The notes under the pieces were generated by a model. That model was not told the DNA's origin, did not search any database, and was given only the letters and a program-made list of their open reading frames with translations. DNA of 50,636 bases from Escherichia phage vB_EcoM_50EP, in sequence record OR472545.1, one strand, 5' to 3'. The translations under genes were made by a program, and so were the position numbers. Every line of letters starts with the position of its first letter. Positions within the stretch are counted from its first letter, which is position 1. Shown piece after piece: positions 1,517 to 44,302 of this stretch.

Positions 1517-1548
1517 TTGACCGTTTAACAAAAAGTGCTATTATAGAG
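1517..1548 (+). promoter_or_regulatory. sigma70-like promoter (-35 TTGACC) with inverted copy of the 18-bp TAGCAC box between -35 and -10
   Basis: TTGACC at 1517-1522, box reverse complement at 1523-1540, TTATAGA after it; upstream of major capsid gene. Confidence 0.4.
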
Positions 1549-16127: not shown

Positions 16128-16171
16128 ACTATACATGCAACTAGCGCCCGAGTCTTTAGCTATTCGTGCTA
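16128..16171 (-). promoter_or_regulatory. TAGCAC-box promoter cassette (minus strand) upstream of lipoprotein gene
   Basis: rc reads TAGCACGAATAGCTAAAG ... TATAGT ... CATCGAAACGAAAC. Confidence 0.45.
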
Positions 16172-16225
16172 TTGTATACGCGTAACCGCTGTAACTCGGT
16201 GTATGCAATCTCGTCCGCGGAAAAT

Positions 16226-16340: not shown

Positions 16341-16604
16341 CTTCTATAGAGTATTCCGCTTATAAATTTCTAATATGTATATTCATACAGTATCTAATCA
16401 CGCATACACTAATGCACCATCCGCGAAAAGTGGTATACACGATATACACGCTGTTTACATCAAGCCATGGCTGGGCTGGACAGCCATTTTATGTAACTAA
16501 CGCCATTGCATACACGTGATTACAAATATCTACATGTAACCACTTGACTAACGCAACCAAGCGCGTATAGTTACCCACATCAACAACGAACGAGGATTAA
16601 AGAG

Positions 16605-17645
16605 ATGACTAAGCCACTGTTTCAATATTTCACTTCAGAAGAAATGAGCAACGATTTCTATCACAGCAAAAGTGAATGGACTGCTGAGTATGTGTCGGGT
16701 TCATCACTTAGTAAGATTCACAGCACTTGCCCTGCGGCGTGGAAGTTTGAAATGAACTCGACTACAAAGGCTCTTGTTTTCGGCACTCAGTCACACACCA
16801 ACTTTGAGAGCAAGGCGCTGTTTGAACGTCAGTATCGCCGAGCACCGAAAGAAAGCGAGATTGAAAACGTGATAACAAGCCAGGCGGCTTTGGCAACTAA
16901 GTTAAAATCATTTGGCCTGACTGGTACAAGCGGCAAGCAATATCCAGAGTTGATTAAAATGATGGTTGATTGTGGTGAAGACCTCAACGTCATGTGGCTG
17001 ATTGATATGATCGCACAGTGTCAGGCGCGGGCCGATGGCGTGGAACTTGTTAAGGCGGAAGACTACGACGCTTGCGTCAGTATGCGCCAGGTTCTTGAGA
17101 TGATTCCTGAACATAACGCCTGCATGAACAGTGAGACAGCATTTCGTGAGTATTCATTGTTCGGCGTAATTTGTGGCGTTAAAGTCAAGGTGCGACTTGA
17201 CCACGTTGACATTATTAAAGATCCAGAAGCAATCCGTCGCATGGGTTACGATCCTGACATTCATCCTGAAATTGTCGTCATCACTGATTACAAAACGACA
17301 ATGAGCGCTAACCCGACTGAGTTCCCGCGACTGGCATTCAATCATGGATACTATCTCAAGATGGCATTGCAGCGCGACTTGTTCGTTAAATGCTTTGAGG
17401 AAACAAGACCTGTGGTTGTTCGATTGCTGGCCCAGGAGAAGAAGGAGCCTTACTTGCCGATGGCGTACCGGATGAGTAGCGATCAGCTTAAGATTGGTCG
17501 TGCGCAGTACATGAGCGTGATACACACCTTCTCAATGTGCGAAGCCAACGACGTGTGGCCTTCATACAACAACGGAGAGCCGGAAATGGAGCTTGAGACG
17601 CCTGACTGGATCATGAAGCAGTTCAAGCATATCCTGGACGCATAG
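16605..17645 (+). CDS. PD-(D/E)XK recombination exonuclease (RecB/Cas4-like fold)
   Basis: RLDHVD ... ITDYKTT motif pattern; immediately upstream of ERF and SSB. Confidence 0.5.
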   Translation: MTKPLFQYFTSEEMSNDFYHSKSEWTAEYVSGSSLSKIHSTCPAAWKFEMNSTTKALVFGTQSHTNFESKALFERQYRRAPKESEIENVITSQAALATKLKSFGLTGTSGKQYPELIKMMVDCGEDLNVMWLIDMIAQCQARADGVELVKAEDYDACVSMRQVLEMIPEHNACMNSETAFREYSLFGVICGVKVKVRLDHVDIIKDPEAIRRMGYDPDIHPEIVVITDYKTTMSANPTEFPRLAFNHGYYLKMALQRDLFVKCFEETRPVVVRLLAQEKKEPYLPMAYRMSSDQLKIGRAQYMSVIHTFSMCEANDVWPSYNNGEPEMELETPDWIMKQFKHILDA

Positions 17646-17685
17646 CACTTTTTGCTAAACACGAACACGGTGATTTGCTATAATC
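17643..17685 (+). promoter_or_regulatory. TAGCAC-box promoter cassette
   Basis: TAGCACTTTTTGCTAAAC, 7-bp stem CGGTGAT/ATCACCG with TGCTATAAT in loop. Confidence 0.45.
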
Positions 17686-18416: not shown

Positions 18417-18875
18417 ATGCCACACGTAATCACTGGTCAGATCCGCAAAGCCCCATACACCAAAGAAGGCAGCAACAACAACGGTCGTTGGAAAATGTAC
18501 GCCGTTGAACTGTCAGAACGCATGAAGATTCGAAATCAAAATGGGGAGGATGAGACGGTTTACAGTAACTACCGCGCCACGTTCTTCGCAAAAGAAAACG
18601 TTATGCAGTGGTATGATGAAGCGTTCCAGGAAGGTAAGGTTGTATCAATTTCTGCCGACACGCTTCACCTGGCGTCACGCCAGGGTAATGACGGCACGGT
18701 GTATGTAACCGCCGAAATGATCCGGCCTCAGTTGCAATTCAGCCAGCGTGAACCAGCGCAGCATGGACAAGGTCAGCAACAACAACGCCAACAGGCTCAG
18801 CAACAGCAGCAACAACGCCAGCCTCAGCAGCAACCGAATCAATCAATGCAATTCGACGATGACATTCCTTTCTGA
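18417..18875 (+). CDS. ssb: single-stranded DNA-binding protein
   Basis: Gln-rich linker and canonical acidic C-terminal tip FDDDIPF. Confidence 0.75.
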   Translation: MPHVITGQIRKAPYTKEGSNNNGRWKMYAVELSERMKIRNQNGEDETVYSNYRATFFAKENVMQWYDEAFQEGKVVSISADTLHLASRQGNDGTVYVTAEMIRPQLQFSQREPAQHGQGQQQQRQQAQQQQQQRQPQQQPNQSMQFDDDIPF

Positions 18876-21241: not shown

Positions 21242-21257
21242 CTCCTATATTGTTTTT

Positions 21258-21275
21258 TAGCACTAATTGCTAAAG
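21258..21275. promoter_or_regulatory. TAGCAC box (TAGCACTAATTGCTAAAG) in leader of minus-strand tail fibre gene
   Basis: 18-bp box 17 bp upstream of ATG at 21241; TACAAT-like hexamer further upstream. Confidence 0.4.
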
Positions 21276-21293: not shown

Positions 21294-21320
21294 AGGAATA
21301 AAAAAACCCGCCGTAGCGGG
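21294..21320 (-). terminator. rho-independent terminator of primase gene
   Basis: on minus strand CCCGCTACGGCGGG + T7. Confidence 0.55.
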
Positions 21321-21326
21321 TAATTG

Positions 21327-22268
21327 TTATGAATACTTATCTATCAGATCCTGCGGTGTATATAGCTTTCTCTCAAGTCCCATTTTGAAGTTTCCGCCGT
21401 TCGGCACTACAACTTTTAAATCACGTTCATCTGCCATGTAAAGCGTTCGCAAATCATCAGCCGGACACGCTACGCGCAACTCCCGATCGCCACGATAACG
21501 ATAAGCAACAATCTCAAGATTCTCAGGGGAGAAAGTCACCCACACTTCCTGACTGGTTGCTATCTTCACTCGGTATCCATCAACAAGGTCGCTTGTCATA
21601 TATATAGCTGCATCAGCCTCGCCACTACCCAGCTTAACCACTGATCCGCGAGAATAATCACGCGCAAGGAAAGTGTATTCGCCATTATCATAAGCAAACA
21701 TGACGTTACACATATCCTCATCAATTCCGTCGGGGTGGACCATGTAGCACGGCAGTGCGTGTATTAGCTCTTCAGTGCCATTCTGACGCACTTTTACGCC
21801 AACATCATATGAATCTTCGGTTAGGCACTCATACACGCTTAAATCAGTGCTCTCGCGCTTCTCTGTGCGCTCCATTACGGCTACACACGACTCATGATCC
21901 GCCATCTTGCCAAGCCCTTTCTCCGGTACGCGTGACGCCCTGCGGTAAGCCTTGGCTTTGTAATCCTGCGGAACCTTACCAAGGAATCGACCAAGGATGT
22001 TAATCACTTCACTGTAAGGCTCACCAGTCAGTTTCATCATCCAGCCGACGCCTTTATCGTTACCACATCCGTTACAGATCGCGCCGCCGTCACCAGGGGA
22101 ATCCAGTTCATCAGTCCACCGGAATCGGTCCTTGCCGCCGCAGTAAGGGCATGGCTGGTGCTTCTTATTGAACACGCCGGACTGCAAGCCACAAATGGAT
22201 TGTAACGCTTCACGCCATAATCCCTTCATATACGGCAGCACTTCTTCTTTCTGGAACATCTCGTTCAC
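21327..22268 (-). CDS. putative DNA primase (zinc-finger containing)
   Basis: CPYCGG...C..CG Cys cluster near N-terminus; location in replication module beside helicase. Confidence 0.45.
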   Translation of the reverse strand: MNEMFQKEEVLPYMKGLWREALQSICGLQSGVFNKKHQPCPYCGGKDRFRWTDELDSPGDGGAICNGCGNDKGVGWMMKLTGEPYSEVINILGRFLGKVPQDYKAKAYRRASRVPEKGLGKMADHESCVAVMERTEKRESTDLSVYECLTEDSYDVGVKVRQNGTEELIHALPCYMVHPDGIDEDMCNVMFAYDNGEYTFLARDYSRGSVVKLGSGEADAAIYMTSDLVDGYRVKIATSQEVWVTFSPENLEIVAYRYRGDRELRVACPADDLRTLYMADERDLKVVVPNGGNFKMGLERKLYTPQDLIDKYS

Positions 22269-22278
22269 TGTGTTTACT

Positions 22279-22311
22279 CCAATAAAAAAGGTTGCACCAA
22301 TTATGGCACAA
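22279..22311 (-). terminator. rho-independent terminator after HTH gene
   Basis: on minus strand GGTTGTGCCA-TAAT-TGGTGCAACC + T-run. Confidence 0.55.
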
Positions 22312-22320
22312 CCTTGATTG

Positions 22321-22803
22321 TTATTCTTTAGCTTTCCGTGCTGCTTCGTTTGCTGCTTTAATTTTTCGCCATGAGCGACATTCAGGCTTAGTGGCTAGTT
22401 CAGCCTCGGTGACGACGCGCAGCATGTGACGCTTTTTGCAACGCAGCGTTAGCGGCTTGCCGTTCCCGTCGAATTGCAGATCAGGGCGGCAGAATGTAGC
22501 GCGGAACCCTTCGCCAGTTCGCTTATATCGGTTGTGCGCCAGTTGAGCGCCGCGCGCCGACATCATGCCGCGCTTAAACCATTCCTCAACTGCCTGTCGA
22601 GTAACTTTTAATTGCTTCGCCATGTTCGCCTTGCTGCCGTAGAACTCAAACACAATATCAAGTCGCGCTCTTAATCCGGCCTTTACTTCATCCTTGAGAA
22701 CATAGTAACCTGACGGTCGTTTGCGCTGCTTCTTATCTTCCGTGCGGATAGTTCCGTTGTTACCGTTAAGAGTACGCTTATCATTTGCATTCATTTTCAT
22801 CAC
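22321..22803 (-). CDS. basic HTH DNA-binding protein (candidate transcription regulator)
   Basis: segment KANMAKQLKVTRQAVEEWFKRG resembles helix-turn-helix; Lys/Arg-rich; divergent from helicase promoter. Confidence 0.4.
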   Translation of the reverse strand: MMKMNANDKRTLNGNNGTIRTEDKKQRKRPSGYYVLKDEVKAGLRARLDIVFEFYGSKANMAKQLKVTRQAVEEWFKRGMMSARGAQLAHNRYKRTGEGFRATFCRPDLQFDGNGKPLTLRCKKRHMLRVVTEAELATKPECRSWRKIKAANEAARKAKE

Positions 22804-22808
22804 CTCAA

Positions 22809-22851
22809 TAGCACTTTTTGTTAAACATTGGTTTCGATGGTTGTTATTATA
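22809..22851 (+). promoter_or_regulatory. TAGCAC-box promoter cassette upstream of helicase, 6 bp from divergent HTH gene start
   Basis: TAGCACTTTTTGTTAAAC ... TATTAT ... TCGAACGAAC. Confidence 0.45.
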
Positions 22852-22887
22852 ACGTCAATCGAACGAACATGAAAGGCATTTAATACT

Positions 22888-24990
22888 ATGGCTATACGCA
22901 TTAAATCCATTAAAAAACAGATAGAAGAACTTGGCCCGCAAAAGATTAAAGAGATTCAGGATAAATTCACATTTGGCGACATGGTTCCTTATGAGTATCA
23001 GTGCGTAATGTATGACGAGATCGGCAAGCGCATTGCTCGCTATAAGCATCCATTCATCGTTAAGGCGTCGGTGTCGGCAGGTAAAACAATCGGCTTTGCC
23101 ATGATCGCATCGCGCGTCAAAGAGATGGGCTTGTCGATGATGATTCTTGCACGCCAGGGCGACATTGTTGCTCAGGATAGTGAAGAGATCTCAAACTTCG
23201 GCGTTCCTAACTCAGTTTATTGCGCTGGCCTGAACACGAAATCAGCTTACTTTCCTATCGTTGTAGGTTCGGAAGGTTCTGTTGCAAATGGTCTGTTTAA
23301 GGCGCTTGGTGACTTTACACCCATGGTTCTTGGGATTGATGAGTGCCACCAGGTGGATTGGGAAGACCTTGCCGCCGCCATCGACAACGAAGAAACGATC
23401 GAGATGATGCTAACTGAAAAAGATGAGCGCGTATTTGTTGACTACCCGAAAAACAGCGAAGGTTATGTCAATGGATACCTTGACGGCGTAGAGGTTGGCG
23501 TCCAGGTGATGGATAAGCAATTGCTGATAAGCCGGAAGACTGGCGAGCCTGTTCTTGGAACAAAACGAAGCCAGTACACGATCATAATCACTGAATTGAT
23601 GCGCCGCTGCAAAGAGAAGAACGGGAAGGAATTACGCATCTTCGGCATGACTGGTTCGGAGTTCAGAGGAACAGCGCCAATTGTTGTCGATAACCCTAAG
23701 CTGCCAGGATTCTGGCGTGAGCAGGTTACTAACATCGACACCAGCTACCTGATTGAGTTCGGCTCTGTTGTTCCAACAATCTTCGGAAGTGTCGGTGACG
23801 CTGGATATGATCTGGATGAGTTTAAGGCGTCAAGTCAGGATGGAACGGCTGACTTTGGTCAGAAAGAAATGAAGGCGATGGAGAAGAAAATCCATGATAA
23901 CGCCAGCATGACCAAGCGAATAATGGGAATGGTAGTCGAAGAGGCGAAGAAGCGAAACGGTGTACTGATTACGTGTTCAGGCCAGCGCCATTGCAAAGAG
24001 GCGGCGAGCTATCTGCCACCTGACGCTACCTATGAGATCATCACGGAGAAGACGAACACCAAAAAACGACAAGCGATACTGGAGGCGGCGAACCGTGGCG
24101 AGATCAAATACATATTCCAGGTGGTAGCGCTAACCACTGGCGTTAACGTTCCGTTTTGGGATTTTTCGGTAATCCTGCGCAAGATCGGCTCACTTACCCT
24201 GCTAATACAGTTGCTTGGTCGAGGTATGCGATTGCTTAAGCCGTGGCAAAAAGCGATGGGAATGGTGAAAGAAGATCACCTGGTATGGGATTTCGCTGGC
24301 ACGATGGATGAGCTTGGTCAGCTTTACTTCGATCCGATTCTTGAAGAGGCTCAGTACCAGCGCCGCTTTGATGGTAAGAAAGAGCCGAAAAAATGTGAAC
24401 TGTGCGGAACCGAGAACAGCTTTTACGCCCGCCGTTGCATTCACAGAGACGAAAACGGCAATCGTTGTGAGTATTTCTGGAAATCTCGAATCTGTGAAGA
24501 CCAGATTGATGATCGCACTGGTGAGGTGATTGTTAAGGGATGTGGCGCTGAGAATGACGTAGTGGCGAGAATATGCCGTTGCTGTGATGTGAGCCTGAAA
24601 GATCCCAATGATAATCTGACTGGTAAGGCTTACACCAAAAACGACTGGTGCACAGTGAATGGTTTTGAAGTAACGCTGACACGCAATCAGACTGGTATTC
24701 TTTATCGTTACGATCTGACAGATTCAGTTGGAGTTAATTTCATCGCGTATGAAAAGTTCTTCCCGCAGTCAACGGCACAGGTATGTCACACGATATGGAA
24801 ACAGAAAGGGGTGCTGCCTCATGTGCATGACAGTAAGATCGCAAAGTTAATGGCAGCTTACAGAAGTGCTAAAATGATTTTAAACAACGCTCACCACATA
24901 GCGCATCCAGTGCGGGTAACTCACCGCAAGAATGCAAAAGGTGAGGACATCATTTCACGTAAGGATTTTGGATTGGACGGTAACTTATGA
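22888..24990 (+). CDS. SF2 DNA helicase
   Basis: Walker A ASVSAGKT, DECH box (GIDECHQ), C-terminal Cys-rich zinc-ribbon-like segment. Confidence 0.7.
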   Translation: MAIRIKSIKKQIEELGPQKIKEIQDKFTFGDMVPYEYQCVMYDEIGKRIARYKHPFIVKASVSAGKTIGFAMIASRVKEMGLSMMILARQGDIVAQDSEEISNFGVPNSVYCAGLNTKSAYFPIVVGSEGSVANGLFKALGDFTPMVLGIDECHQVDWEDLAAAIDNEETIEMMLTEKDERVFVDYPKNSEGYVNGYLDGVEVGVQVMDKQLLISRKTGEPVLGTKRSQYTIIITELMRRCKEKNGKELRIFGMTGSEFRGTAPIVVDNPKLPGFWREQVTNIDTSYLIEFGSVVPTIFGSVGDAGYDLDEFKASSQDGTADFGQKEMKAMEKKIHDNASMTKRIMGMVVEEAKKRNGVLITCSGQRHCKEAASYLPPDATYEIITEKTNTKKRQAILEAANRGEIKYIFQVVALTTGVNVPFWDFSVILRKIGSLTLLIQLLGRGMRLLKPWQKAMGMVKEDHLVWDFAGTMDELGQLYFDPILEEAQYQRRFDGKKEPKKCELCGTENSFYARRCIHRDENGNRCEYFWKSRICEDQIDDRTGEVIVKGCGAENDVVARICRCCDVSLKDPNDNLTGKAYTKNDWCTVNGFEVTLTRNQTGILYRYDLTDSVGVNFIAYEKFFPQSTAQVCHTIWKQKGVLPHVHDSKIAKLMAAYRSAKMILNNAHHIAHPVRVTHRKNAKGEDIISRKDFGLDGNL

Positions 24991-25415
24991 TTACAGATAA
25001 AGGCGACTACCTGGAATATTACACTCCAGACAAATCGGATACATGGACCGAAAGCAAACACCAGATCGATTGCGTGACCTGGACTAAAGTTAGGCATGGT
25101 GATTTGCTGTTCTGGCACGCCGTTAATGAGAACAAGAAGCACATCCACACGGCGCTAAAGGATGCTCAGAGCGGGTTATTGAAAGGGGTTAGTGATTTTG
25201 TATTCCTTTTAGGCCCGTTCGGTAAATATCCGTTCGGGGCCATAGAATTGAAGCGCGTCAATAAGAGCGGGAAAGGAAAGGCATCACCAGTCAGCAAGGA
25301 GCAGAAAGATTTCCTCCGGCGTGTCCGAGAGCGCGGCGGGTTTGCGGCGGTGGCATACGGGCAGGAGGAATACAAGAAAGCCGTTGCTGATATGCTGAAT
25401 AGCACGAATTGCTAA
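24987..25415 (+). CDS. VRR-NUC domain nuclease
   Basis: 142 aa; pattern D..FLLGPFG...AIELK ... KEQKDFL consistent with VRR-NUC. Confidence 0.45.
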   Translation: MITDKGDYLEYYTPDKSDTWTESKHQIDCVTWTKVRHGDLLFWHAVNENKKHIHTALKDAQSGLLKGVSDFVFLLGPFGKYPFGAIELKRVNKSGKGKASPVSKEQKDFLRRVRERGGFAAVAYGQEEYKKAVADMLNSTNC

Positions 25416-25442
25416 AGACGAATCGGCGGGGTGGTGTATTAT
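25400..25442 (+). promoter_or_regulatory. TAGCAC-box promoter cassette
   Basis: TAGCACGAATTGCTAAAG ... TATTAT ... CATCGAAACGAAGT; box overlaps upstream stop codon. Confidence 0.45.
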
Positions 25443-26485: not shown

Positions 26486-26701
26486 ATGAGCGTAAAATCA
26501 AGTAATCAATTTCATTTATTTCGTGCGATCGTTTGCGATGAGTTAACGAGTTCAGGGTTCAAAGGTAACGCGTGGTTATTCTCAGGTGATCTTGATATGT
26601 CATTTGATGAGTTGAAAGATCAGTCAGTATCATCATGGCGCGCTGCAATACGGAAAGACCTTGAAGACTATATGCTTGCTTGCCCCGAAGATTTTGCGTA
26701 A
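26486..26701 (+). CDS. hypothetical protein
   Basis: ATG 26486 with GGAG RBS right after dam stop. Confidence 0.35.
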   Translation: MSVKSSNQFHLFRAIVCDELTSSGFKGNAWLFSGDLDMSFDELKDQSVSSWRAAIRKDLEDYMLACPEDFA

Positions 26702-26744
26702 TAGCACGAATTGCTAAACATACCCGCCGCCGCGCGGGTATACT
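26702..26744 (+). promoter_or_regulatory. TAGCAC-box promoter cassette
   Basis: TAGCACGAATTGCTAAAC ... GGTATACTTCTTTCATACC hairpin. Confidence 0.45.
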
Positions 26745-26774
26745 TCTTTCATACCAACGAGACGAGGAATCACC

Positions 26775-27571: not shown

Positions 27572-28714
27572 ATGGCTATTCAAAAAATAAGTGACGAACA
27601 ATTCATTGCTGAGCGCGAAGCTGGTAAGACACTGCGTCAAATAGCCCAAGAATACGGGATGAACATTCGAACCGTTGAGCAGCGCTCAAGCCGCCTGGCA
27701 AAGCGCGGTGAGTTCCACGGAAATAAACACGTAAGCGTACACGTACCAGAGGGTTTTCAGGTTAAAGGTACATCAACTATGATTCGCGCTGACGGTTCTG
27801 AGGTTGTGCGCTGGGTTAAGACCGATCAGGACAAGGAGAAGTTAGCCGCCATGATGAATGCTGCAATTGAAGCATTCTGTGATGAACTACCACGCGCGGC
27901 GGCTCAGCCTATCCTTGGCGAACCTCACTACGATGAAAATCTCCTGGCGCTCTATCCGGTATTCGATCTTCATATTGGCGCGATGGCACACAAGCATGAA
28001 TGCGGTGAGAACTACAGCACCGACATCTCAGAGAAAGTACTGAAAAACTTCTTTGATTATTCTGTCGGCGTATCTCCGAAGGCTAAGAAAGCAGTCCTGT
28101 TAATCGGCGGTGACTTCCTTCACTCTGATGGCCTGGACGCAGTAACGCCTGCAAGCGGTCACGTACTGGATCAGGATAGTCGATACGCCAAGCTAGTTCA
28201 CGTTGCAATCCGTTCCGTACGCCGCGCGGTGGCGCTAATGCTGGATAAGCACGAAGAAGTCGAAATCCAGATCATTGAGGGCAACCATGACCAGGCGGGT
28301 ATGATTTGGCTTCGCGCGGCAATGGCAGCATACTTTGAAGATGAGGCGCGCGTAACGGTTGATGTTTCACCTATGATTCTTCACCGTACTAAGTGGGGTA
28401 AAACATTGCTGGGATACACTCATGGTCACACCATGAAGAAAGCAGATACTCGACTGGCGGCAATGGCTACTGACTTCCGCGAAGAGTTCGGTACGAGCAA
28501 ATATATTTACACTCACTCGGGGCACTGGCATCACCAGACGATCACAGAAGGCACGCTTGGTATTGATGAGGTTCACGGTCAGTTGGGCGCGAAAGATGCC
28601 TATGCTGCGCGCGGCGGTTGGCGTTCATATCGCCAGGCGGCGGTAATTGTCTACTCCAAGGAGTTCGGCGAAGTAGGTCGCTTCGTTTACCGTCCTGAAA
28701 TGAGCGACATCTAA
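27572..28714 (+). CDS. calcineurin-like metallophosphoesterase with N-terminal HTH-like segment
   Basis: phosphoesterase motifs DLH, GGDFLHSD, GNHD, GHTH, GHWHH; N-terminal GKTLRQIAQEYGMNIRTV. Confidence 0.6.
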   Translation: MAIQKISDEQFIAEREAGKTLRQIAQEYGMNIRTVEQRSSRLAKRGEFHGNKHVSVHVPEGFQVKGTSTMIRADGSEVVRWVKTDQDKEKLAAMMNAAIEAFCDELPRAAAQPILGEPHYDENLLALYPVFDLHIGAMAHKHECGENYSTDISEKVLKNFFDYSVGVSPKAKKAVLLIGGDFLHSDGLDAVTPASGHVLDQDSRYAKLVHVAIRSVRRAVALMLDKHEEVEIQIIEGNHDQAGMIWLRAAMAAYFEDEARVTVDVSPMILHRTKWGKTLLGYTHGHTMKKADTRLAAMATDFREEFGTSKYIYTHSGHWHHQTITEGTLGIDEVHGQLGAKDAYAARGGWRSYRQAAVIVYSKEFGEVGRFVYRPEMSDI

Positions 28715-28757
28715 TAGCACGAATTGCCTAACACCATAGCGCCGGAAGGCGCTATAT
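28715..28757 (+). promoter_or_regulatory. TAGCAC-box promoter cassette
   Basis: TAGCACGAATTGCCTAAC ... GCGCCGGAAGGCGC hairpin ... TATATT. Confidence 0.4.
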
Positions 28758-28785
28758 TCATATCTCACTCACATAGGATTCAATC

Positions 28786-32265: not shown

Positions 32266-32297
32266 CTTATTCTCTCTCGTTGTTATCGATGGGTATA

Positions 32298-32341
32298 AAT
32301 ATACCCGCCGAAGCGGGTATTGTCATTAACAAAAAGTGCTA
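32298..32341 (-). promoter_or_regulatory. TAGCAC-box promoter cassette (minus)
   Basis: rc: TAGCACTTTTTGTTAATG ... CCCGCTTCGGCGGG hairpin ... TATATT. Confidence 0.4.
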
Positions 32342-32548
32342 TTTTTTGAAGTGCCCTGGCGCATAGCATTTTCCATCCTTCTTATGCAAAACCCACCCAG
32401 CAGATTTAAGTTGCCTTGCACAATCAGAAAAGTTCTCGCCAGCAGCGTCCGTATAGTGTGGCATAAAATAATGCCCATCATCATTTGACTCAGTTGAGCA
32501 CTTCTTGCAGTCGCAATAAACAGCGATGGAATAACCTGAAACAATCAT
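32339..32548 (-). CDS. small Cys-rich protein (possible zinc-binding)
   Basis: 69 aa with CDCKKC ... C ... C pattern. Confidence 0.35.
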   Translation of the reverse strand: MIVSGYSIAVYCDCKKCSTESNDDGHYFMPHYTDAAGENFSDCARQLKSAGWVLHKKDGKCYAPGHFKK

Positions 32549-32936: not shown

Positions 32937-32979
32937 AATATACAGGAAAAGCCCCGAAGGGCTTTAGCAATTCGTGCTA
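32937..32979 (-). promoter_or_regulatory. TAGCAC-box promoter cassette (minus)
   Basis: rc: TAGCACGAATTGCTAAAG ... GCCCTTCGGGGC hairpin ... TATATT ... CATCGAAACGAAAC. Confidence 0.45.
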
Positions 32980-33489
32980 TCTTCCATGGTTTTCATGAAA
33001 ACCAAGCCTTGCATTGGCTGACATTCTCATGCATACAGCCTCAAACCAATCTTTTGACGTTCCGAGCTTTATATTTCTCCTTTTTCCACCATCCTTTATC
33101 TCAACCTGAGCCAGCCAAGTGTTTCTATCAGACCTCCACACAACGCCGCACACGCCGCTTTTGTTTAGTGGGCTTTTGCTGAAATTTCTACAATTTCCAG
33201 ATCTGGAAACAAGCCTGTGATTGCTGTCGGAATTGTCATCTCTTATGTGATTTATGTGATCAACCTCCATCCCCTCTGGTATCACGCCGTGCCTCATCTC
33301 CCAAATTATTCTATGATGAGGGTGGCATACTCCGTTAACCTCAGAATAAAGGTATCCATTCATTACATATCCTGCTAAATCGCCAGGTCTTATCTGATTA
33401 TTTCCTCTAATCCAAAAAAGCCTGTCATTCACTAGTTCAAAATGCTTTGTCCAGTCATTACTTATTGCTTTCATAAATCGCTCTCGCAA
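32977..33489 (-). mobile_element. HNH homing endonuclease with AP2-like DNA-binding domain
   Basis: HRIIWEMRHG ... VDHINHIRDDN ... N HNH pattern followed by GVCGVVW...W.A...GK AP2-like segment. Confidence 0.6.
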
Positions 33490-35023: not shown

Positions 35024-35068
35024 TGATTATGCCTCATTCCGTGAGGCTTCGTTTAGCAATTCGTGCTA
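35024..35068 (-). promoter_or_regulatory. TAGCAC-box promoter cassette (minus)
   Basis: rc: TAGCACGAATTGCTAAAC ... GCCTCACGGAATGAGGC hairpin ... CATCGAAACGAAGT. Confidence 0.45.
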
Positions 35069-35070
35069 TT

Positions 35071-35494: not shown

Positions 35495-35538
35495 AATAAT
35501 AGCTAATCACTCCTGATCGGTCATTAGCAAAAAGTGCT
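35495..35538 (-). promoter_or_regulatory. TAGCAC-box promoter cassette (minus)
   Basis: rc: TAGCACTTTTTGCTAATG ... TATTAT ... CATCGAAACGGCAC. Confidence 0.45.
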
Positions 35539-35552
35539 ATTCGTTCGATTTA

Positions 35553-35665: not shown

Positions 35666-35788
35666 GGGGAATGATGGGGTGAGATCTGATCCCCTGATCG
35701 CCTGGTAGGATTTTCCCGCCACACGTTTCTAGCGCATACGCGTTATGCATGTTATGCTCTGTAGACAAATCCATCCGGCGTGGAATCA

Positions 35789-36696: not shown

Positions 36697-37262
36697 TGAG
36701 CATGTTTGATTTCAGTGAAGATAAACTAACAGATGAGCAGGTGATTGAAGTTGCCATGATTGATGGTCTACTTCCGCTGCGAGTTGCGATCAGTCATAAC
36801 GGATACCGACAGTCGTTCAAATACTGGTGCAGCGCGGAAGAGATGCTTCGTGTCAAGCTCGACAGAAAGCTCGCCGTCGTCACCCATAAGATACACGACC
36901 AGGCGAAAAGAGGTAAGGGAGTTGTAGGCATTCGATCAACATACGAGGCGATCAGGAAGTTGCATCCTTTCGTCGGGCGCAATGGTGTCATGAATGACCT
37001 GAATGATAACATTCTGCCAGCGCTCCAGGGCGCCGGAATAATTTGCGTTATTGGTGACAAGATATATGCTCACCCTGCATTGGTTGGTATGGATGGTCGC
37101 GACGTCTATAAGTGGTGCAACGCCTGGCGCGCTGTGGAGCGCCGCAAATCTCAGAGCAAATTGCAGTCCAGCTCAGATCTGATTCATGGCTATGATGCAG
37201 ATGAGGTCAGAAAGGCCATCCAGTTCTACCGGAAAGCGAAATCTCTCCTGAACGGTGAATAG
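36693..37262 (+). CDS. mini-paralog of the P-loop ATPase (N- and C-terminal segments only, ATPase core absent)
   Basis: MFDFSEDKLTDEQV...LPLRVAI..NGYRQS and KRGKGVVGIRSTYEA...GDKIYAHPALVG align to the ends of the 30682..32265 product. Confidence 0.45.
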   Translation: MMSMFDFSEDKLTDEQVIEVAMIDGLLPLRVAISHNGYRQSFKYWCSAEEMLRVKLDRKLAVVTHKIHDQAKRGKGVVGIRSTYEAIRKLHPFVGRNGVMNDLNDNILPALQGAGIICVIGDKIYAHPALVGMDGRDVYKWCNAWRAVERRKSQSKLQSSSDLIHGYDADEVRKAIQFYRKAKSLLNGE

Positions 37263-37302
37263 CACGAATTGCTAAACCAGTTCCGCAAGGACGCGGTATA
37301 TT
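37260..37302 (+). promoter_or_regulatory. TAGCAC-box promoter cassette
   Basis: TAGCACGAATTGCTAAAC ... CCGCAAGGACGCGG ... TATATT ... CATTGAAACGAAAT. Confidence 0.45.
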
Positions 37303-37333: not shown

Positions 37334-37564
37334 ATGAGCTACACGATCGCCACAATGCGCACATCCACCAGGGAGCAGCGAAAGAGCCGTAAGCAGGTTA
37401 TCACCAAGCGAATCGAACGTAATGCCATGAGATACATGACGGCTGAGCAGGCCGAGAGATTCATGCGCGCCATCAAGTCCGACCTTGTGGAATTGATGGA
37501 TATTGGAAGCGCCGCCGGATACCAGTCAGGCCGTAACGATGAGCGCAATAGCACGAATTGCTAA
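37334..37564 (+). CDS. hypothetical basic protein
   Basis: ATG 37334 with RBS AGGAAC; track N-terminal extension rejected. Confidence 0.35.
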   Translation: MSYTIATMRTSTREQRKSRKQVITKRIERNAMRYMTAEQAERFMRAIKSDLVELMDIGSAAGYQSGRNDERNSTNC

Positions 37565-37591
37565 ACAATAAATCGGGTAGTCAGCTATGAT
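37549..37591 (+). promoter_or_regulatory. TAGCAC-box promoter cassette
   Basis: TAGCACGAATTGCTAAAC ... TATGAT; box overlaps upstream stop. Confidence 0.4.
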
Positions 37592-38236: not shown

Positions 38237-38523
38237 AGAAACTAATTTTATTAGCAGCACTGGCTCTGGCTGGATGTGATTTCGGAAGCACCCGCGTAGA
38301 TTCAGAGGCTCGGCAGAAGATGCCAGTGAATGTCAACGATCGCGTCCAGGTTGTGAAGATTCAGGAGTTCAGGGATGAACTGGCATATGAGAACGTCAGA
38401 GCGATATACGTCATCACCGATAAGGACACTGGTCAGGAATACATCGGCTTAAGCGGTGTCGGGATCGTGGAAGTTGGTCGCCATGGTTGCGGCAAGGGAT
38501 GCTCCAGAGAAGATGAGCGATAG
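38233..38523 (+). CDS. lipoprotein
   Basis: signal peptide with lipobox LAGC. Confidence 0.5.
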   Translation: MKKLILLAALALAGCDFGSTRVDSEARQKMPVNVNDRVQVVKIQEFRDELAYENVRAIYVITDKDTGQEYIGLSGVGIVEVGRHGCGKGCSREDER

Positions 38524-38563
38524 CACTTTTTGTTAAAAATGCCGTGAGTGCATTTGCTATAGT
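38521..38563 (+). promoter_or_regulatory. TAGCAC-box promoter cassette
   Basis: TAGCACTTTTTGTTAAAA, 8-bp stem TGAGTGCA/TGCACTCA with TTTGCTATAG loop, CATTGAAGTGAAAC. Confidence 0.5.
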
Positions 38564-38602
38564 GCACTCATTGAAGTGAAACAATCAACTAAGGGGTAAT
38601 TT

Positions 38603-39360: not shown

Positions 39361-39609
39361 ATGAAAATGGTTTTCAATAAACAGACAATCTTTGATTTTA
39401 TGGACGACGTGAACAAGGCTATTCAGGAGTTTGCTGTTGCAATGGAAGCGGTAATCATTAGCTACTCAGTCGAATACGGAAGGATTGAGGTCCGGTACTA
39501 CCCTGCTAACGCCATAGCAGATGTGCATCCAGTGATGAGCATCTTGGTCGGTGATGCAAGTGAGCTTCGACGGATTACGTCTGGTGTGAGAAAGAGCACG
39601 AATTGCTAA
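39361..39609 (+). CDS. hypothetical protein
   Basis: 82-aa ORF. Confidence 0.35.
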   Translation: MKMVFNKQTIFDFMDDVNKAIQEFAVAMEAVIISYSVEYGRIEVRYYPANAIADVHPVMSILVGDASELRRITSGVRKSTNC

Positions 39610-39636
39610 AACGATATTCTCCCTGACTGGTATACT
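39594..39636 (+). promoter_or_regulatory. TAGCAC-box promoter cassette (GAGCAC variant)
   Basis: GAGCACGAATTGCTAAAA ... CTGACTGGTATACTTCTTTCATACC. Confidence 0.4.
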
Positions 39637-39664: not shown

Positions 39665-39853
39665 ATGACTAACTACACCACGATTTACACTCACTGCGGC
39701 AAAGCGTTCACGGCACTGGCTGAGGATATTGAGTATCTGCCCTGGCACCAGGTATGGAAGATGCACAAGATTACTTCCACTGGAACGCAGGAGTGGTTCT
39801 TGAGAAAGATTTACGTGGCTGAGGTCATTCACCACAACGAAAAATTCGAATAG
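39665..39853 (+). CDS. hypothetical protein
   Basis: 62-aa ORF after cassette. Confidence 0.35.
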   Translation: MTNYTTIYTHCGKAFTALAEDIEYLPWHQVWKMHKITSTGTQEWFLRKIYVAEVIHHNEKFE

Positions 39854-39893
39854 CACTTTTTGTTAAACCTTCCGCAAGGCCATTTGATATAGT
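39851..39893 (+). promoter_or_regulatory. TAGCAC-box promoter cassette
   Basis: TAGCACTTTTTGTTAAAC, stem AAGGCCA/TGGCCTT with TTTGATATAG loop. Confidence 0.5.
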
Positions 39894-40710: not shown

Positions 40711-40929
40711 ATGCAAGTCTACACTAACAGTAAAGGCGTCGAATTTTGTGCAATCGGTGATGTGGTTCTGCGTACTGGCGGCGGATACGGGGTTATTAAC
40801 ATCTCAGGCATCACGCAGGATCAGTTGGTAAAGGGCATCCAGGCTGGCATCTTTACCTATCACTCATCACTGACGGCTAAGCAGTACGTCACACTTGAAA
40901 CTGCAATTCGCGCCGGATTCATCGAATAG
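40711..40929 (+). CDS. hypothetical protein
   Basis: ATG 40711 with RBS GAAGGAG. Confidence 0.35.
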   Translation: MQVYTNSKGVEFCAIGDVVLRTGGGYGVINISGITQDQLVKGIQAGIFTYHSSLTAKQYVTLETAIRAGFIE

Positions 40930-40969
40930 CACTTTTTGTTAAAACTTGCTCGGAGACATTAGCTATAGT
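40927..40969 (+). promoter_or_regulatory. TAGCAC-box promoter cassette
   Basis: TAGCACTTTTTGTTAAAA, stem GGAGACA/TGTCTCC with TTAGCTATAG loop. Confidence 0.5.
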
Positions 40970-41010: not shown

Positions 41011-41814
41011 ATGAACAGCATCAACCGTTATATCCCTGTGTCAGTGCCAACCAGCGTCAACATTCACGGCGTCGGAATGCAAGCCTGCGACGATGGAGCA
41101 TGGGTATCCTACGCAATGCATAAAAAAGAAATCGAGTCCTTACAGGCACGCTTAAAGGCCTTAGAATCGACTCAAAAACATCAAATTTCTGCACCGTCGA
41201 TTATCGCTGACCATGTTGAGCAGGCAATCAAAGAAGCTGTAGGTAAGCTGGTGCACGAAGCATGTGAGCAATTGCTCAAGGATTTGCCTAAGTACAATGG
41301 CGATCCGTGTCACAGCACTGTCGATGCATTCGTGAATGAGCTTGCGGCTGGCTCAGGGAAAACCGTCGTAGATGATGGCGTAAAGTTTGATTACCTGACG
41401 AAAGATGCCAAGTTCACTTTCGGTAGCAATTTCGGTGAAGGCAAGGCGCTTACCATGTCAACCGCGAAAATGGAGCCACGCAGCGGCGGTTACGATTATG
41501 GAAATCGTCACGTATGGGCGGTAGGTGAATGCGAATCTGCACGCGATCGCAAGGTGGCAGTTTGCTATTACGTTGGCGGGAATGGATTCGTAAATGGTGG
41601 AGAATATGAGTATGAAGAAGGAGAGTGCGAAACAGGTTCCAAACCGCGCGTTATTCACATCACGCAAGACGATTTCGTATCTGGATTAAAAGGTGACTAC
41701 CGCTGGAGAGCTATGAAGGTTGGTAATGTGATAAATGCTAATGGTGAGCTAGTTGACGCATACGCAACACTAAATATTAATGGCGGAGTAGTGGCTCAGT
41801 TCTATATCAAATAG
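41011..41814 (+). CDS. hypothetical protein with C-terminal Cys/Gly-rich region
   Basis: 267-aa ORF. Confidence 0.4.
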   Translation: MNSINRYIPVSVPTSVNIHGVGMQACDDGAWVSYAMHKKEIESLQARLKALESTQKHQISAPSIIADHVEQAIKEAVGKLVHEACEQLLKDLPKYNGDPCHSTVDAFVNELAAGSGKTVVDDGVKFDYLTKDAKFTFGSNFGEGKALTMSTAKMEPRSGGYDYGNRHVWAVGECESARDRKVAVCYYVGGNGFVNGGEYEYEEGECETGSKPRVIHITQDDFVSGLKGDYRWRAMKVGNVINANGELVDAYATLNINGGVVAQFYIK

Positions 41815-41854
41815 CACTTTTTGTTAAAAGGGGATTCATCCTGACTGGTATAAT
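41812..41854 (+). promoter_or_regulatory. TAGCAC-box promoter cassette
   Basis: TAGCACTTTTTGTTAAAA, stem GGGGATT/AATCCCC, CTGACTGGTATAAT. Confidence 0.5.
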
Positions 41855-43629: not shown

Positions 43630-43630
43630 A

Positions 43631-43673
43631 TAGCACGAATTGCTAAACCAGCTCCGGCGGGTTTTGTTATAGT
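43631..43673 (+). promoter_or_regulatory. TAGCAC-box promoter cassette
   Basis: TAGCACGAATTGCTAAAC ... TTGTTATAGT. Confidence 0.4.
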
Positions 43674-43863: not shown

Positions 43864-44262
43864 ATGAAATTACGTTGCGTTAAAATACATCCAGGGTTAG
43901 CGCCGCTGCTCGAAGATCACTTTCAGGTTGGTCATGTGTACGAAGCTAAACGCAGGCCAAACCGCCACCTCAACGTGGCTGATGTTATTGATGTGGATAA
44001 CGGCCTTACTTGGTACGCCATCCAGAAAGGCAGTAAGTTTAACCTGAATCTCGCAAGCGGCAAAGCAGTCACTTTCGCGGTAGTAAAAGGTCCGCGCCGC
44101 TTAGTAGTGACGGAAAAACGTGTAACTGGCGTCCTTAATGATAAGCGTAAGTTCCGCCGTATGTGTCGCCAGTATGGAAAGCTGCGATTCACCGAGCCTG
44201 GGATGTTCTGCTTCATCGCCTTTGCGGCAATGAAAAAGAATGCACGTAATCACCAGCGATAG
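43864..44262 (+). CDS. hypothetical basic protein
   Basis: 132-aa ORF. Confidence 0.4.
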   Translation: MKLRCVKIHPGLAPLLEDHFQVGHVYEAKRRPNRHLNVADVIDVDNGLTWYAIQKGSKFNLNLASGKAVTFAVVKGPRRLVVTEKRVTGVLNDKRKFRRMCRQYGKLRFTEPGMFCFIAFAAMKKNARNHQR

Positions 44263-44302
44263 CACTTTTTGTTAAAACTCAGAATCGGGGTGGCTGTATA
44301 GT
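44260..44302 (+). promoter_or_regulatory. TAGCAC-box promoter cassette
   Basis: TAGCACTTTTTGTTAAAA ... GGGGT...TGTATAGTTACCCC ... CATCGAAACGAACG. Confidence 0.5.

What the first reader, a model, noticed from the sequence alone, without database searches (positions are those of the whole stretch)
22321..22890. Divergent HTH-gene/helicase control region only 84 bp long with a TAGCAC box 6 bp from the HTH gene start
The basic HTH protein gene (minus strand, start at 22803) and the helicase gene (plus, 22888) diverge from an 84-bp region that contains a box cassette at 22809-22851. This is a classic autoregulatory layout, making the 160-aa HTH protein the best candidate for the box-binding regulator. 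Boxes also sit in operator-like positions at the major capsid promoter (1523-1540, between -35 TTGACC and the -10) and in the tail fibre leader (21258-21275), which suggests one factor coordinates early cassettes and structural genes.
Basis: inference. Interest (0 to 1): 0.6.

Follow-up and report, generated by a model that had tools for sequence, protein, structure and literature searches.

The report
T1-phage promoter box and regulator gene
The short gap between a small DNA-binding-protein gene and a helicase gene in this T1-like phage holds two overlapping back-to-back promoters and one copy of a 19-bp box found before about 20 other genes. The layout makes this protein a reasonable but unproven candidate for reading the box, whose function is a stated open question for T1-like phages.

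Summary
The HTH gene most likely starts at ATG 22794, not GTG 22803. The gap is then 93 bp, and the box (22808-22826) lies 13 nt from the start codon.

The box is already published: it is the 21-nt repeat aaATAGCACnnnTTGnTAAAA of phages TLS and T1, function unknown. This window is a T1-like phage with 19 co-directional copies. Each lies 18-20 nt upstream of a -10 hexamer, with no -35 element.

The box is an imperfect dyad, TAGCA-N5-TGCTA, centred near -42. That is an activator position. At the capsid, tail-fibre and HTH-gene promoters it instead overlaps the core promoter or lies just downstream of the start site, which is a repressor position. Box, geometry and the divergent layout are conserved in 10 lineages, including a Vibrio phage.

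The 157-aa protein has a confident Cro-type fold and its own box-free promoter and terminator. However, the exposed residues of its recognition helix are the most variable in the protein, while the box does not vary. No tool here tests binding.

I put this protein as the box reader at about 0.4. The rivals are a second conserved HTH protein (380 aa) and a host factor.

The parts
22321..22794 (-). Gene for a 157-aa basic protein with a Cro/YdaS-type HTH (orthologue of T1 ST23, 'transcriptional regulator'). It forms its own transcription unit.
22803..22806 (-). Ribosome-binding site GAGG of the HTH gene, 8 nt before ATG 22794 and 1 nt from the box.
   Evidence: Read from the sequence. The equivalent CCTC/CACCT is conserved next to the box in 9 other lineages.
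22808..22826 (+). Box ATAGCACTTTTTGTTAAAC, an imperfect dyad TAGCA-N5-TGTTA. It is centred near -42 of the helicase promoter and lies at about +13 to +32 of the HTH-gene promoter.
22845..22850 (+). -10 hexamer TATTAT of the helicase promoter (preceded by TG), 18 nt after the box.
22846..22851 (-). -10 hexamer TATAAT of the HTH-gene promoter. It overlaps the helicase -10 by 5 of 6 bp on the opposite strand.
   Evidence: the same 5-bp overlap is found in all 10 lineages. In T1 the promoter reads TTGAAT-17-TATAAT.
22870..22875 (-). Weak -35-like hexamer CTTTCA of the HTH-gene promoter (18-nt spacer).
   Evidence: The match is 3 of 6 here and 4-5 of 6 in T1, L006 and L009.
22888..24990 (+). Helicase gene (700 aa, orthologue of T1 ST22), driven by the box-type promoter.
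   Evidence: Pfam Helicase_C and ResIII; synteny.
22288..22315 (-). Intrinsic terminator ending the HTH transcript. Its loop carries the -10 (CATAAT, 22300-22305) of the primase promoter.
   Evidence: 12-pair stem followed by TTTTATT. T1 and ETEP102 annotate a terminator at the same place.
22326..22344 (-). Degenerate box GCAGCACGGAAAGCTAAAG inside the 3' end of the HTH gene, where it encodes AARKAK. It lies 20 nt upstream of CATAAT and so forms the primase promoter.
   Evidence: Read from the sequence. T1 has ATAGCATTTTTAGTTAAAA at the equivalent place, 19 nt before TAACAT.
21327..22268 (-). Primase gene (zinc-ribbon primase, orthologue of T1 ST24).
   Evidence: Pfam Zn_Ribbon_Prim, E 2.1e-12.
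1517..1544 (+). Major capsid promoter TTGACC-N16-TATTAT, with the box inverted in the spacer (1523-1541) and overlapping the -10. This is a repression geometry.
   Evidence: The arrangement is conserved in ESCO41, T1 and Vibrio phage Vc1.
21257..21287 (-). Tail-fibre promoter. The extended -10 TGATACAAT (21287-21279) is followed by a near-palindromic box (21275-21257) spanning about -3 to +16.
   Evidence: The same arrangement occurs in ESCO41, T1 and L010, is degenerate in Vc1 and L007, and is absent in L008 and L011.
16154..16172 (-). Box of a co-directional cassette (GAA class).
17642..17660 (+). Box of a cassette (TTT class) upstream of the Erf-like gene. Its TAG is the stop codon of the exonuclease gene.
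25399..25417 (+). Box of a cassette (GAA class).
26701..26719 (+). Box of a cassette (GAA class).
28714..28732 (+). Box of a cassette (GAA class, degenerate 3' half).
32324..32342 (-). Box of a cassette (TTT class) upstream of the DUF3987 helicase gene.
32962..32980 (-). Box of a cassette (GAA class).
35051..35069 (-). Box of a cassette (GAA class).
35522..35540 (-). Box of a cassette (TTT class).
37259..37277 (+). Box of a cassette (GAA class).
37548..37566 (+). Box of a cassette (GAA class).
38520..38538 (+). Box of a cassette (TTT class).
39593..39611 (+). Box of a cassette (GAA class).
39850..39868 (+). Box of a cassette (TTT class).
40926..40944 (+). Box of a cassette (TTT class).
41811..41829 (+). 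Box of a cassette (TTT class).
43630..43648 (+). Box of a cassette (GAA class).
44259..44277 (+). Box of a cassette (TTT class).
27572..28714 (+). Rival box reader: a 380-aa protein (orthologue of T1 ST16) with an N-terminal three-helix HTH and a C-terminal domain carrying metallophosphoesterase-like motifs.
   Evidence: Pfam HTH_23, E 0.02, aa 13-43. The HTH is strongly conserved, with R33, E36 and R38 invariant. AlphaFold2 places helices at 8-16, 21-27 and 32-44. Foldseek gives weak, non-significant LuxR/DosR/sigma-4-like matches.

Best explanation
The 93-bp gap is a conserved two-way promoter switch.

Shown from the sequence:
- The rightward helicase promoter is one of 19 'cassette' promoters in this phage. 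Each has a good -10 hexamer, no -35 element, and the 19-bp box ending 18-20 nt upstream of the -10. The dyad TAGCA-N5-TGCTA is therefore centred near -42.
- The leftward promoter of the HTH gene is an ordinary host sigma-70 promoter without a box. Its TATAAT overlaps the helicase -10 by 5 of 6 bp on the other strand, so RNA polymerase can occupy only one of the two at a time.
- The box lies at +13 to +32 of the HTH transcript, directly against the ribosome-binding site.

Inferred:
- The box is the operator of a dimeric, phage-encoded regulator.
- From -42 the regulator recruits RNA polymerase to the roughly 20 early and middle promoters that lack a -35 element.
- It blocks the three promoters where the box overlaps the core or the start site: major capsid, tail fibre, and the HTH gene itself.
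- The most likely reader is the 157-aa Cro-fold protein encoded here. It would be made first from its own box-free promoter, would then turn on the helicase and the other cassettes, and would limit its own synthesis.

For: - **Box frequency.** Ten copies with 3 or fewer mismatches against 0.02 expected.
- **Cassette geometry.** 19 co-directional cassettes have a box-to--10 spacing of 18-20 nt, most often 19. The same consensus and spacing hold for 69 cassettes from 9 lineages and for T1.
- **Dyad form.** The logo shows TAGCA / TGCTA arms around a centre that is always an A/T tract. This is the form of operators bound by Cro/cI-type dimers (plus general knowledge of the 434, P22 and lambda operators).
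- **Box or -35, not both.** The boxless promoters at 16544, 36108 and the HTH gene have real -35 hexamers, while the cassettes have none.
- **Repression geometry.** It is conserved at the capsid promoter (window, ESCO41, T1, Vc1) and at the tail-fibre promoter (window, ESCO41, T1, L010).
- **Divergent region.** All 10 lineages have the same layout: a 5 of 6 bp overlap of the -10 hexamers, the box at +13 to +32, and the box 10-13 nt from the start codon.
- **Fold.** The protein has a Cro-type fold, is basic, and is annotated as the only core 'transcriptional regulator'.
- **Own transcription unit.** It has its own promoter and terminator.
- **Co-occurrence.** Protein family and box occur together and only in T1-like genomes. 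This includes an outgroup in which only the HTH domain of the protein is kept.
Against: - No binding test is possible with these tools.
- The exposed positions of the presumed recognition helix (66, 67, 68, 70, 71, 73) are the most variable in the protein, at 2.6-3.7 bits among 42 representatives. In Vc1 the helix reads CCVRLTNAY where the window has TRQAVEEWF, yet the box is the same. Orthologous regulators that share an operator normally keep these residues.
- Co-occurrence does not discriminate, because both the protein and the box are core features of the family.
- Conservation of the box across Escherichia, Klebsiella, Salmonella and Vibrio phages fits an unchanging host partner equally well.
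- Whether the box activates or represses at -42 is inferred from position only.
Confidence: 0.4

Rival explanations
1. The box is read by a different phage protein. The best alternative is the N-terminal HTH of the 380-aa ST16-like protein (27572-28714). The Cro-fold protein would then do something else, for example bind a phage-specific site such as an origin or serve the neighbouring primase and helicase, which would explain its variable recognition helix.
For: - The ST16-like N-terminus is a three-helix HTH (Pfam HTH_23 E 0.02; a precomputed weak Sigma70_r4_2 hit on homologues; AlphaFold2 helices at 8-16, 21-27 and 32-44).
- Its third helix is nearly invariant, with R33, E36 and R38 kept in all lineages including Vc1 and the 43%-identical L011. 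That is what an invariant box would demand.
- Its best, though non-significant, fold matches are LuxR/TraR/DosR-type domains. From general knowledge, LuxR and TraR activate from about -42.5.
- Ten other conserved small proteins have no known fold and cannot be excluded.
Against: - The gene lies behind box-type promoters and several terminators, so as the activator it would need itself to be made. The Cro-fold gene has a box-free promoter.
- The protein is fused to a domain with metallophosphoesterase-like motifs, which points to a nuclease rather than a regulator (motifs read by eye; weak PdeM hit).
- Foldseek E-values are 0.4 or worse.
- Its family is much larger than the T1 group, with 3326 clusters, although the distant members were not inspected.
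- It has no positional link to a box of the kind the Cro-fold gene has.
Confidence: 0.2
2. The box is read by host machinery and no phage regulator is involved. It would be either a promoter element contacted by RNA polymerase itself (alpha subunit C-terminal domains on the central A/T tract and the TAAAA flank, or sigma region 4 on TTGNTA) or a site for a conserved host protein such as Lrp.
For: - The box does not vary across phages of Escherichia, Klebsiella, Salmonella and Vibrio, or in a distant outgroup, while every candidate phage protein diverges. The HTH protein falls to about 34% identity and the helicase to 41%.
- The authors of the TLS paper suggested UP-element-like function (PMC11447400).
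- The TTTTnnnAAA core resembles the UP-element consensus (from memory).
- The arms TAGCA / TGCTA fit the ends of the E. coli Lrp consensus yAGhAwATTwTdCTr, cited in PMC5554404, with 2-4 mismatches of 15.
Against: - The most conserved positions are G/C-containing (AGCAC, and the G of TTG), which is unlike UP elements.
- TTGNTA sits 22 bp from the -10, too far for sigma-70. This rests on the established 15-20 bp spacer range, not on a test here.
- The invariant C at position 6 of the core violates the Lrp consensus, and 88 windows in this phage match that loose consensus equally well.
- The inverted boxes inside the capsid promoter, and those just after the tail-fibre and HTH start sites, make no sense as recruitment elements.
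- A host factor would be titrated by about 20 sites per genome copy (inference).
Confidence: 0.2
3. The box acts mainly in RNA, as part of the 3' end of the upstream message together with the hairpin that follows it. It could be a processing, stability or antitermination signal in the manner of lambda nut sites.
For: - The box supplies the stop codon of the upstream gene in at least 13 of 19 cassettes.
- It is followed by a hairpin in 47 of 69 cassettes, with mean folding energy -7.9 against -3.7 kcal/mol for shuffles. The stems covary and many loops are stable tetraloops.
Against: - The fixed 18-20 nt distance from the box to a -10 hexamer is a DNA-level constraint. Hairpin stems and loops vary in length while the total does not.
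- The helicase/HTH copy has no upstream co-directional gene and no hairpin.
- The capsid and tail-fibre copies are inverted or palindromic and sit inside promoters.
Confidence: 0.07

Closest known systems
Intergenic 21-nt direct repeat of T1-like phages (aaATAGCACnnnTTGnTAAAA), described for TLS and noted in T1, Rtp and Rogue1 (PMC11447400)
   Same: It has the same sequence, the same copy number (about 20), the same orientation with transcription and the same distance to start codons. The window's boxes are members of this repeat family.
   Different: The paper leaves the function open, offering stoperator, enhancer site or UP element, and names no binding protein. Four features are not in the passages of that paper read here: the dyad form, the fixed -42 position, the repression-type copies, and the link to the ST23-like gene.
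Lambda cI at OR (PRM/PR): a phage HTH dimer that activates one promoter from about -42, represses the divergent one, and autoregulates
   Different: There is one box here rather than three cooperative operators. The phage is virulent, with no lysogeny module. The two -10 hexamers overlap directly. The recognition helix is not conserved. About 20 further targets are spread over the genome. The comparison with lambda rests on textbook knowledge, not on a test here.
Mu Mor and C, small dimeric HTH activators of middle and late promoters that bind a dyad centred near -43.5 at promoters lacking a -35 (from memory)
   Same: A small basic phage protein, a dyad just upstream of the -35 position, promoters with a good -10 and no -35, and a role in a temporal cascade.
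Phi29 protein p4, which activates the late A3 promoter and represses the early A2b/A2c promoters from shared sites (from memory)
   Same: One phage protein that gives opposite outcomes depending on where its site lies relative to the promoter, coordinating early and late genes.
   Different: P4 has a different fold and binds far upstream with the help of p6. Here the polarity would be reversed: early and middle genes on, structural genes off.
P22 Cro, Xfaso 1 Cro and YdaS-type all-alpha Cro proteins
   Different: The T1-family protein carries an invariant disordered N-terminal arm (DKRxxNGNNGTxRGxD) and a C-terminal extension (FDxNGKP...C) that Cro proteins lack. It is encoded between the primase and helicase genes of a virulent phage.

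Membership tests
T1/TLS intergenic 21-nt repeat (PMC11447400) | Consensus aaATAGCACnnnTTGnTAAAA | tested here: met
   Window consensus is ATAGCACnaaTTGcTAAAn. 25 sites have 2 or fewer mismatches to the core.
T1/TLS intergenic 21-nt repeat (PMC11447400) | Many copies per genome, intergenic, pointing in the direction of transcription, about 76 nt before start codons | tested here: met
   19 co-directional copies. The start codon follows 53-66 nt after the box end, which is 72-85 nt from the box start. Two further copies, at the capsid and tail-fibre promoters, depart from this rule.
Cro/cI-type HTH DNA-binding proteins | All-alpha HTH fold | tested here: met
Cro/cI-type HTH DNA-binding proteins | Sequence match above the curated family threshold | tested here: not met
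   Pfam YdaS_toxin scores 21.9 bits against a cut-off of 30, and P22_Cro 20.7 against 30.2. PDB profile E 0.011 to Xfaso 1 Cro.
Cro/cI-type HTH DNA-binding proteins | Dimer binding to a two-fold symmetric operator through helix 3 | not testable with these tools
   No multimer or protein-DNA modelling and no model coordinates are available. The box does have the expected 5-N5-5 dyad with an A/T centre.
Regulator-operator pair (this protein and the box) | Base-contacting residues conserved wherever the operator is conserved | tested here: not met
   Helix-3 positions 66, 67, 68, 70, 71 and 73 carry 2.6-3.7 bits of entropy, the highest in the protein. The box is invariant in the same lineages.
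Regulator-operator pair (this protein and the box) | Co-occurrence of protein and site across genomes | tested here: met
   Both are present in all 10 lineages and in outgroup L132, and both are confined to T1-like contigs. This does not discriminate, because both are core features.
Class II (about -41.5) activator-dependent promoters | Activator site centred near -41.5, overlapping or replacing the -35, with a good -10 and a poor or absent -35 | tested here: met
   With a spacing of 19 nt the dyad centre falls at -42. The -10 logo is T64 A69 T67 w r T68 of 69 cassettes. There is no TTGACA-like hexamer at 16-18 bp.
Class II (about -41.5) activator-dependent promoters | Dependence of transcription on the bound factor and its contact with RNA polymerase | not testable with these tools
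   This needs in vitro transcription or reporter assays.
Negatively autoregulated divergent regulator gene | Operator overlapping or downstream of the regulator's own promoter | tested here: met
   The box lies at +13 to +32 of the HTH promoter, and the -10 hexamers of the two promoters overlap by 5 of 6 bp in 10 lineages.
Sigma-54 promoters (TGGCAC-N5-TTGC) | GG at -24 and GC at -12 with fixed spacing | tested here: not met
   The box reads TAGCAC-N3-TTGC. The first G of the GG is an invariant A (68 of 69), and the spacing is 2 bp short. The sigma-54 consensus is from memory.
UP elements | A/T-rich sequence from -40 to -60 contacted by the alpha C-terminal domains, with no G/C-specific positions | tested here: inconclusive
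   The central A/T tract and the TAAAA flank fit. The best-conserved positions, AGCAC and the G of TTG, do not, and the element sits 8-9 bp closer to the -10 than the consensus UP element (the UP consensus is from memory).
Lrp binding sites (yAGhAwATTwTdCTr) | Match to the 15-bp consensus | tested here: inconclusive
   The boxes have 2-4 mismatches. 88 windows in this phage match with 3 or fewer. The invariant C at position 6 conflicts with the consensus.
Mycobacteriophage L5 stoperators | Asymmetric repressor sites scattered within transcribed regions of a temperate phage, acting on elongation | tested here: not met
The boxes sit at a fixed distance upstream of -10 hexamers. No integrase or repressor module is annotated in ESCO41, Vc1 or T1.

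The most novel reading that the evidence does not exclude
The invariant box is not read in the textbook way, and two readings remain open.

1. The Cro-fold protein recognises a 19-bp dyad through surfaces other than its hypervariable 'recognition' helix.
2. The box is a new kind of core promoter element, read by host RNA polymerase or a universal host factor. It would replace the -35 from a position 5 bp further upstream and act as a block when inverted.

Either reading would define a promoter class shared by more than 800 sequenced T1-like phages. In that class a stop codon, an operator, a terminator hairpin and a -10 are packed into about 50 bp.
Probability: 0.2. Interest if true: 0.75.

Novelty: new member of a known kind. 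Interest (0 to 1): 0.5.

Why it matters
T1 is one of the classic coliphages, and its relatives (Drexlerviridae) are common in phage collections. How they time gene expression is still unknown. The authors of the TLS genome paper list the function of this repeat among the open questions for the family.

This analysis turns that question into a short list of experiments:
- The box is a dyad at a fixed, activator-type position in about 20 promoters.
- It is at a repressor-type position in three others.
- There are two named candidate readers.

It would also be a handle for engineering these phages or for building compact synthetic promoter-terminator cassettes.

Tried and rejected
- **Antisense promoter reading.** I first read the reverse strand of the box, GTGCTAT, as an extended -10. 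Outside the capsid promoter the following hexamers are poor (TATTCG, TATCGC and similar) and point against the genes.
- **TTGNTA as the -35.** It lies 22 bp from the -10 in every cassette.
- **Sigma-54 promoter.** The sequence and the spacing are both wrong.
- **Second box upstream of the HTH promoter.** The window has ATAGTATTAAATGCCTTTC in register at 22871-22889, matching the box at 8 of 19 positions. The other nine lineages show nothing there, so it is probably chance.
Outgroup L132 lacks the arm but keeps the boxes.
- **Covariation between box and protein.** The box does not vary, so the test has no power.
- **Genomes with the box but without the protein.** Multi-copy hits in IMG/VR are all T1-like contigs.
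- **Distant relatives P0113 and P0116.** None were found in IMG/VR.
- **Literature.** Searches for T1-family transcript maps, or for any study of the ST23 protein, found nothing. The T1 genome paper is not held.
- **Other conserved small proteins.** Pfam and PHROG scans of ten of them, and Pfam scans of ten further mostly mid-sized proteins, gave no other regulator-like fold. The exceptions are the ST16-like N-terminus and the HTH of an HNH homing endonuclease, which is not a core gene.

Full report
**What the window is.** The region 21300-25000 is 97% identical to Escherichia phage TH21 and 93-96% identical to other T1-like phages. Gene order matches phage T1: tail fibre, primase (ST24), 'transcriptional regulator' (ST23), then the divergent helicase (ST22). 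The window is therefore a near-complete genome of a Drexlerviridae coliphage.

**Check of the observation.** The minus-strand ORF 22321..22803 and the helicase ORF 22888..24990 exist, and the box ATAGCACTTTTTGTTAAAC lies at 22808-22826. The 19-mer occurs 10 times with 3 or fewer mismatches against 0.02 expected. The capsid copy lies between TTGACC and TATTAT (1517-1544), and the tail-fibre copy is at 21257-21275.

One detail needs correcting. GAGG (22806-22803) overlaps the GTG at 22803 and is 8 nt from ATG 22794. Close homologues are 157 aa and align from that ATG. The gap is therefore 93 bp, and the box is 13 nt from the start codon with the ribosome-binding site between them.

**The box is already in the literature.** German, Kropinski, Misra and colleagues described a 21-nt direct repeat, aaATAGCACnnnTTGnTAAAA, at 21 places in phage TLS. 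It points in the direction of transcription, lies about 76 nt before start codons, and is also present in T1, Rtp and Rogue1. They left its function open (stoperator, enhancer site or UP element) and listed it among the open questions for T1-like phages (PMC11447400). The passages read name no binding protein, and 'transcriptional regulator' does not occur in the main text.

**Anatomy of the cassettes.** A scan with that consensus finds 19 co-directional copies in the window, of two sub-types: ATAGCAC-TTT-TTGTTAAAA and ATAGCAC-GAA-TTGCTAAAC.
- Every copy is followed after 18-20 nt (most often 19) by a good -10 hexamer such as TATAGT, TATAAT, TATATT or TATTAT, and after 53-66 nt by a start codon.
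- None has a -35 hexamer at 16-18 bp. The TTGNTA inside the box is 22 bp from the -10.
- The box contains an imperfect inverted repeat, TAGCA-N5-TGCTA, whose centre is always an A/T tract. With the usual numbering the dyad centre falls at -42.
- The few promoters in the window that do have a real -35 carry no upstream box. These are at 16544, 36108 and the HTH gene.

So box and -35 are alternatives, which suggests that the box brings RNA polymerase to the promoter. That last step is inference.

**Copies in a different position.**
- *Capsid promoter.* The box is inverted and fills the spacer, overlapping the -10. This exact arrangement is kept in ESCO41, T1 and Vibrio phage Vc1.
- *Tail-fibre promoter.* An extended -10 (TGATACAAT) is followed at once by a near-palindromic box covering about -3 to +16. 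T1, ESCO41 and contig L010 have the same arrangement. Two lineages have degenerate copies and two have none.

These are positions from which a bound protein would block transcription.

**The finding's own region.** I compared the gap in the window, T1, Vc1 and seven metagenomic lineages whose HTH proteins are 45-70% identical to the window's. All ten share one plan:
- HTH start codon, ribosome-binding site and box, with the box 10-13 nt from the start codon.
- An 18-19 nt spacer, then the helicase -10.
- A second -10 on the opposite strand, shifted by one base, so that the two hexamers share 5 of 6 bp.
- The leftward -10 is TATAAT in six lineages and TACAAT, TATACT, TATCAT or GATGAT in the rest.
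- In T1 the leftward promoter is TTGAAT-17-TATAAT.

The box therefore lies at -42 of the helicase promoter and at +13 to +32 of the HTH promoter. The two promoters cannot be occupied at the same time.

The HTH gene ends at a strong terminator (22315-22288). The loop of that terminator carries the -10 of the primase promoter, and the degenerate box of that promoter lies inside the last codons of the HTH gene. The HTH gene is thus a self-contained unit with a box-free promoter, as expected for a regulator made first and then held in check.

**The protein.**
- It matches phrog_2856, 'transcriptional regulator', at E 1.7e-82, and matches Pfam YdaS/P22_Cro below the cut-off.
- AlphaFold2 gives a confident model (pLDDT 85.8) with a disordered first 25 residues and helices at 35-52, 55-62, 66-75 and 80-93.
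- A sequence profile finds Xfaso 1 Cro at E 0.011.
- It is basic, with pI 10.4.
- The family is confined to T1-like genomes: 824 phage records, and 12 representatives below 1e-30 among 1.84 billion proteins.

Among 42 representatives sharing less than 75% identity, the exposed positions of helix 3 (66, 67, 68, 70, 71, 73) are the most variable in the whole protein, at 2.6-3.7 bits. The buried V69 and W72 and the following G76 are conserved. Vc1 has CCVRLTNAY where the window has TRQAVEEWF, yet the Vc1 boxes are the same. Regulators that share an operator normally keep these residues.

The invariant parts of the protein are an N-terminal arm (DKRxxNGNNGTxRGxD..R) and the segment GFRAxFCRPDLxFDxNGKP. 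A distant lineage (L132, a 49,980-bp contig with helicase 41% identical) encodes only the HTH domain (106 aa), in the same position between helicase and primase. It still has box cassettes with the same spacing.

Co-occurrence of box and protein is complete but uninformative, because both are core to the family. Multi-copy box hits in IMG/VR are all on T1-like contigs.

**Rival readers.**
- *The 380-aa ST16-like protein (27572-28714).* It has an N-terminal three-helix HTH whose third helix is almost invariant across all lineages. Its weak, non-significant fold matches are to LuxR/DosR/sigma-4-type domains. However, it is fused to a domain with metallophosphoesterase-like motifs and lies behind box-type promoters.
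- *A host factor.* This would explain why the box never changes across phages of four host genera. But the best-conserved positions are G/C-containing, the fit to the Lrp consensus is loose (2-4 mismatches, with 88 equally good sites in the window), and inverted boxes inside promoters make no sense for a recruitment element.
- *An RNA-level role.* The stop codons and hairpins suggest it, but the fixed distance to the -10 argues against it.

**Verdict.** The region is a conserved two-way promoter switch built around one copy of the family's known repeat. That part is well supported, at roughly 0.8. The box looks like the operator of a dimeric regulator that activates from -42 and represses by overlap. 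This is inferred from geometry and conservation, at roughly 0.6. The Cro-fold protein encoded here is the single most likely reader, but at about 0.4, because its recognition helix is not conserved.

The layout is an ordinary kind of phage circuit, comparable to lambda cI at PRM/PR, Mu Mor/C and phi29 p4. The value of the finding is that it offers a testable answer to a published open question.

Noticed in passing
window: all 19 cassettes, e.g. 38520-38523, 40926-40929, 41811-41814, 44259-44262: The box supplies the stop codon of the upstream gene in at least 13 of 19 cassettes: TAG at box positions 2-4 in ten, and TAA at positions 15-17 in three. Coding sequence, operator and the next promoter therefore overlap.
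   Followed up: yes
window: the 18-20 nt spacers between box and -10, e.g. 26720-26745, 28733-28758, 32280-32323, 38539-38565: The spacers usually hold a GC-rich hairpin with covarying stems, often with TTCG, GGAA or CTTC loops. The 3' arm or the loop overlaps the -10. Mean folding energy is -7.9 against -3.7 kcal/mol for shuffles in 69 cassettes. These are probably terminators or 3'-end stabilisers of the upstream message, embedded in the next promoter.
   Followed up: partly
window: about 7-20 nt after each cassette -10, e.g. 44308-44320; also 16580-16595 and 36140-36155: A conserved motif, CATCGAAACGAA (with variants ATTGAAGTGAAAC and CATCAACAACGAA), begins at about the predicted transcription start. 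It is also present at the box-free promoters at 16544 and 36108, and on both strands of the HTH/helicase gap. Its function is unknown.
   Followed up: no
window 35541-36175: A non-coding stretch of about 630 bp holds repeats of TTGCAATGA / CTATTGCA (35550-35660), (TAT)6, ATGTAGATA twice, and a box-free promoter TTGATA-17-TAATAT (about 36108-36136) that leads the rightward early genes. It corresponds to the non-coding left ends of the ESCO41 and T1 records, so it may hold the packaging site or the origin. The ORFs listed there are probably spurious.
   Followed up: partly
window 27572-28714: A core 380-aa protein (orthologue of T1 ST16, annotated 'DNA repair exonuclease') joins a highly conserved N-terminal HTH to a domain with metallophosphoesterase-like His/Asp motifs. 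Its DNA target is unknown.
   Followed up: partly
window 22720-22782 (residues 5-24 of the HTH protein): The predicted disordered N-terminal arm DKRTxNGNNGTxRGxDxxxR is the most conserved part of the protein, at less than 0.6 bits per position. It is missing in a distant lineage that keeps the HTH domain. It might contact a host or phage protein rather than DNA.
   Followed up: partly
L132:4692-4775 (outgroup contig): In the distant lineage, the box in the helicase/HTH gap has moved. ATAGCACTTCCGGCAATAG overlaps both -10 hexamers (CATAAT on one strand, TGCTATTAT on the other), as in the capsid promoter. There it would repress both genes rather than activate the helicase.
   Followed up: no
window 41888-42340 and 32977-33489: These are HNH homing-endonuclease genes. 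The first also has a resolvase-type HTH. Both are inserted among early genes and are absent or differently placed in relatives.
   Followed up: no
L134 (T1) 18831-18849: T1 has a further inverted TTT-class box just upstream of the tape-measure chaperone gene ST40, between a terminator and the start codon. The window has no box at the equivalent place, 5281-5354.
   Followed up: no
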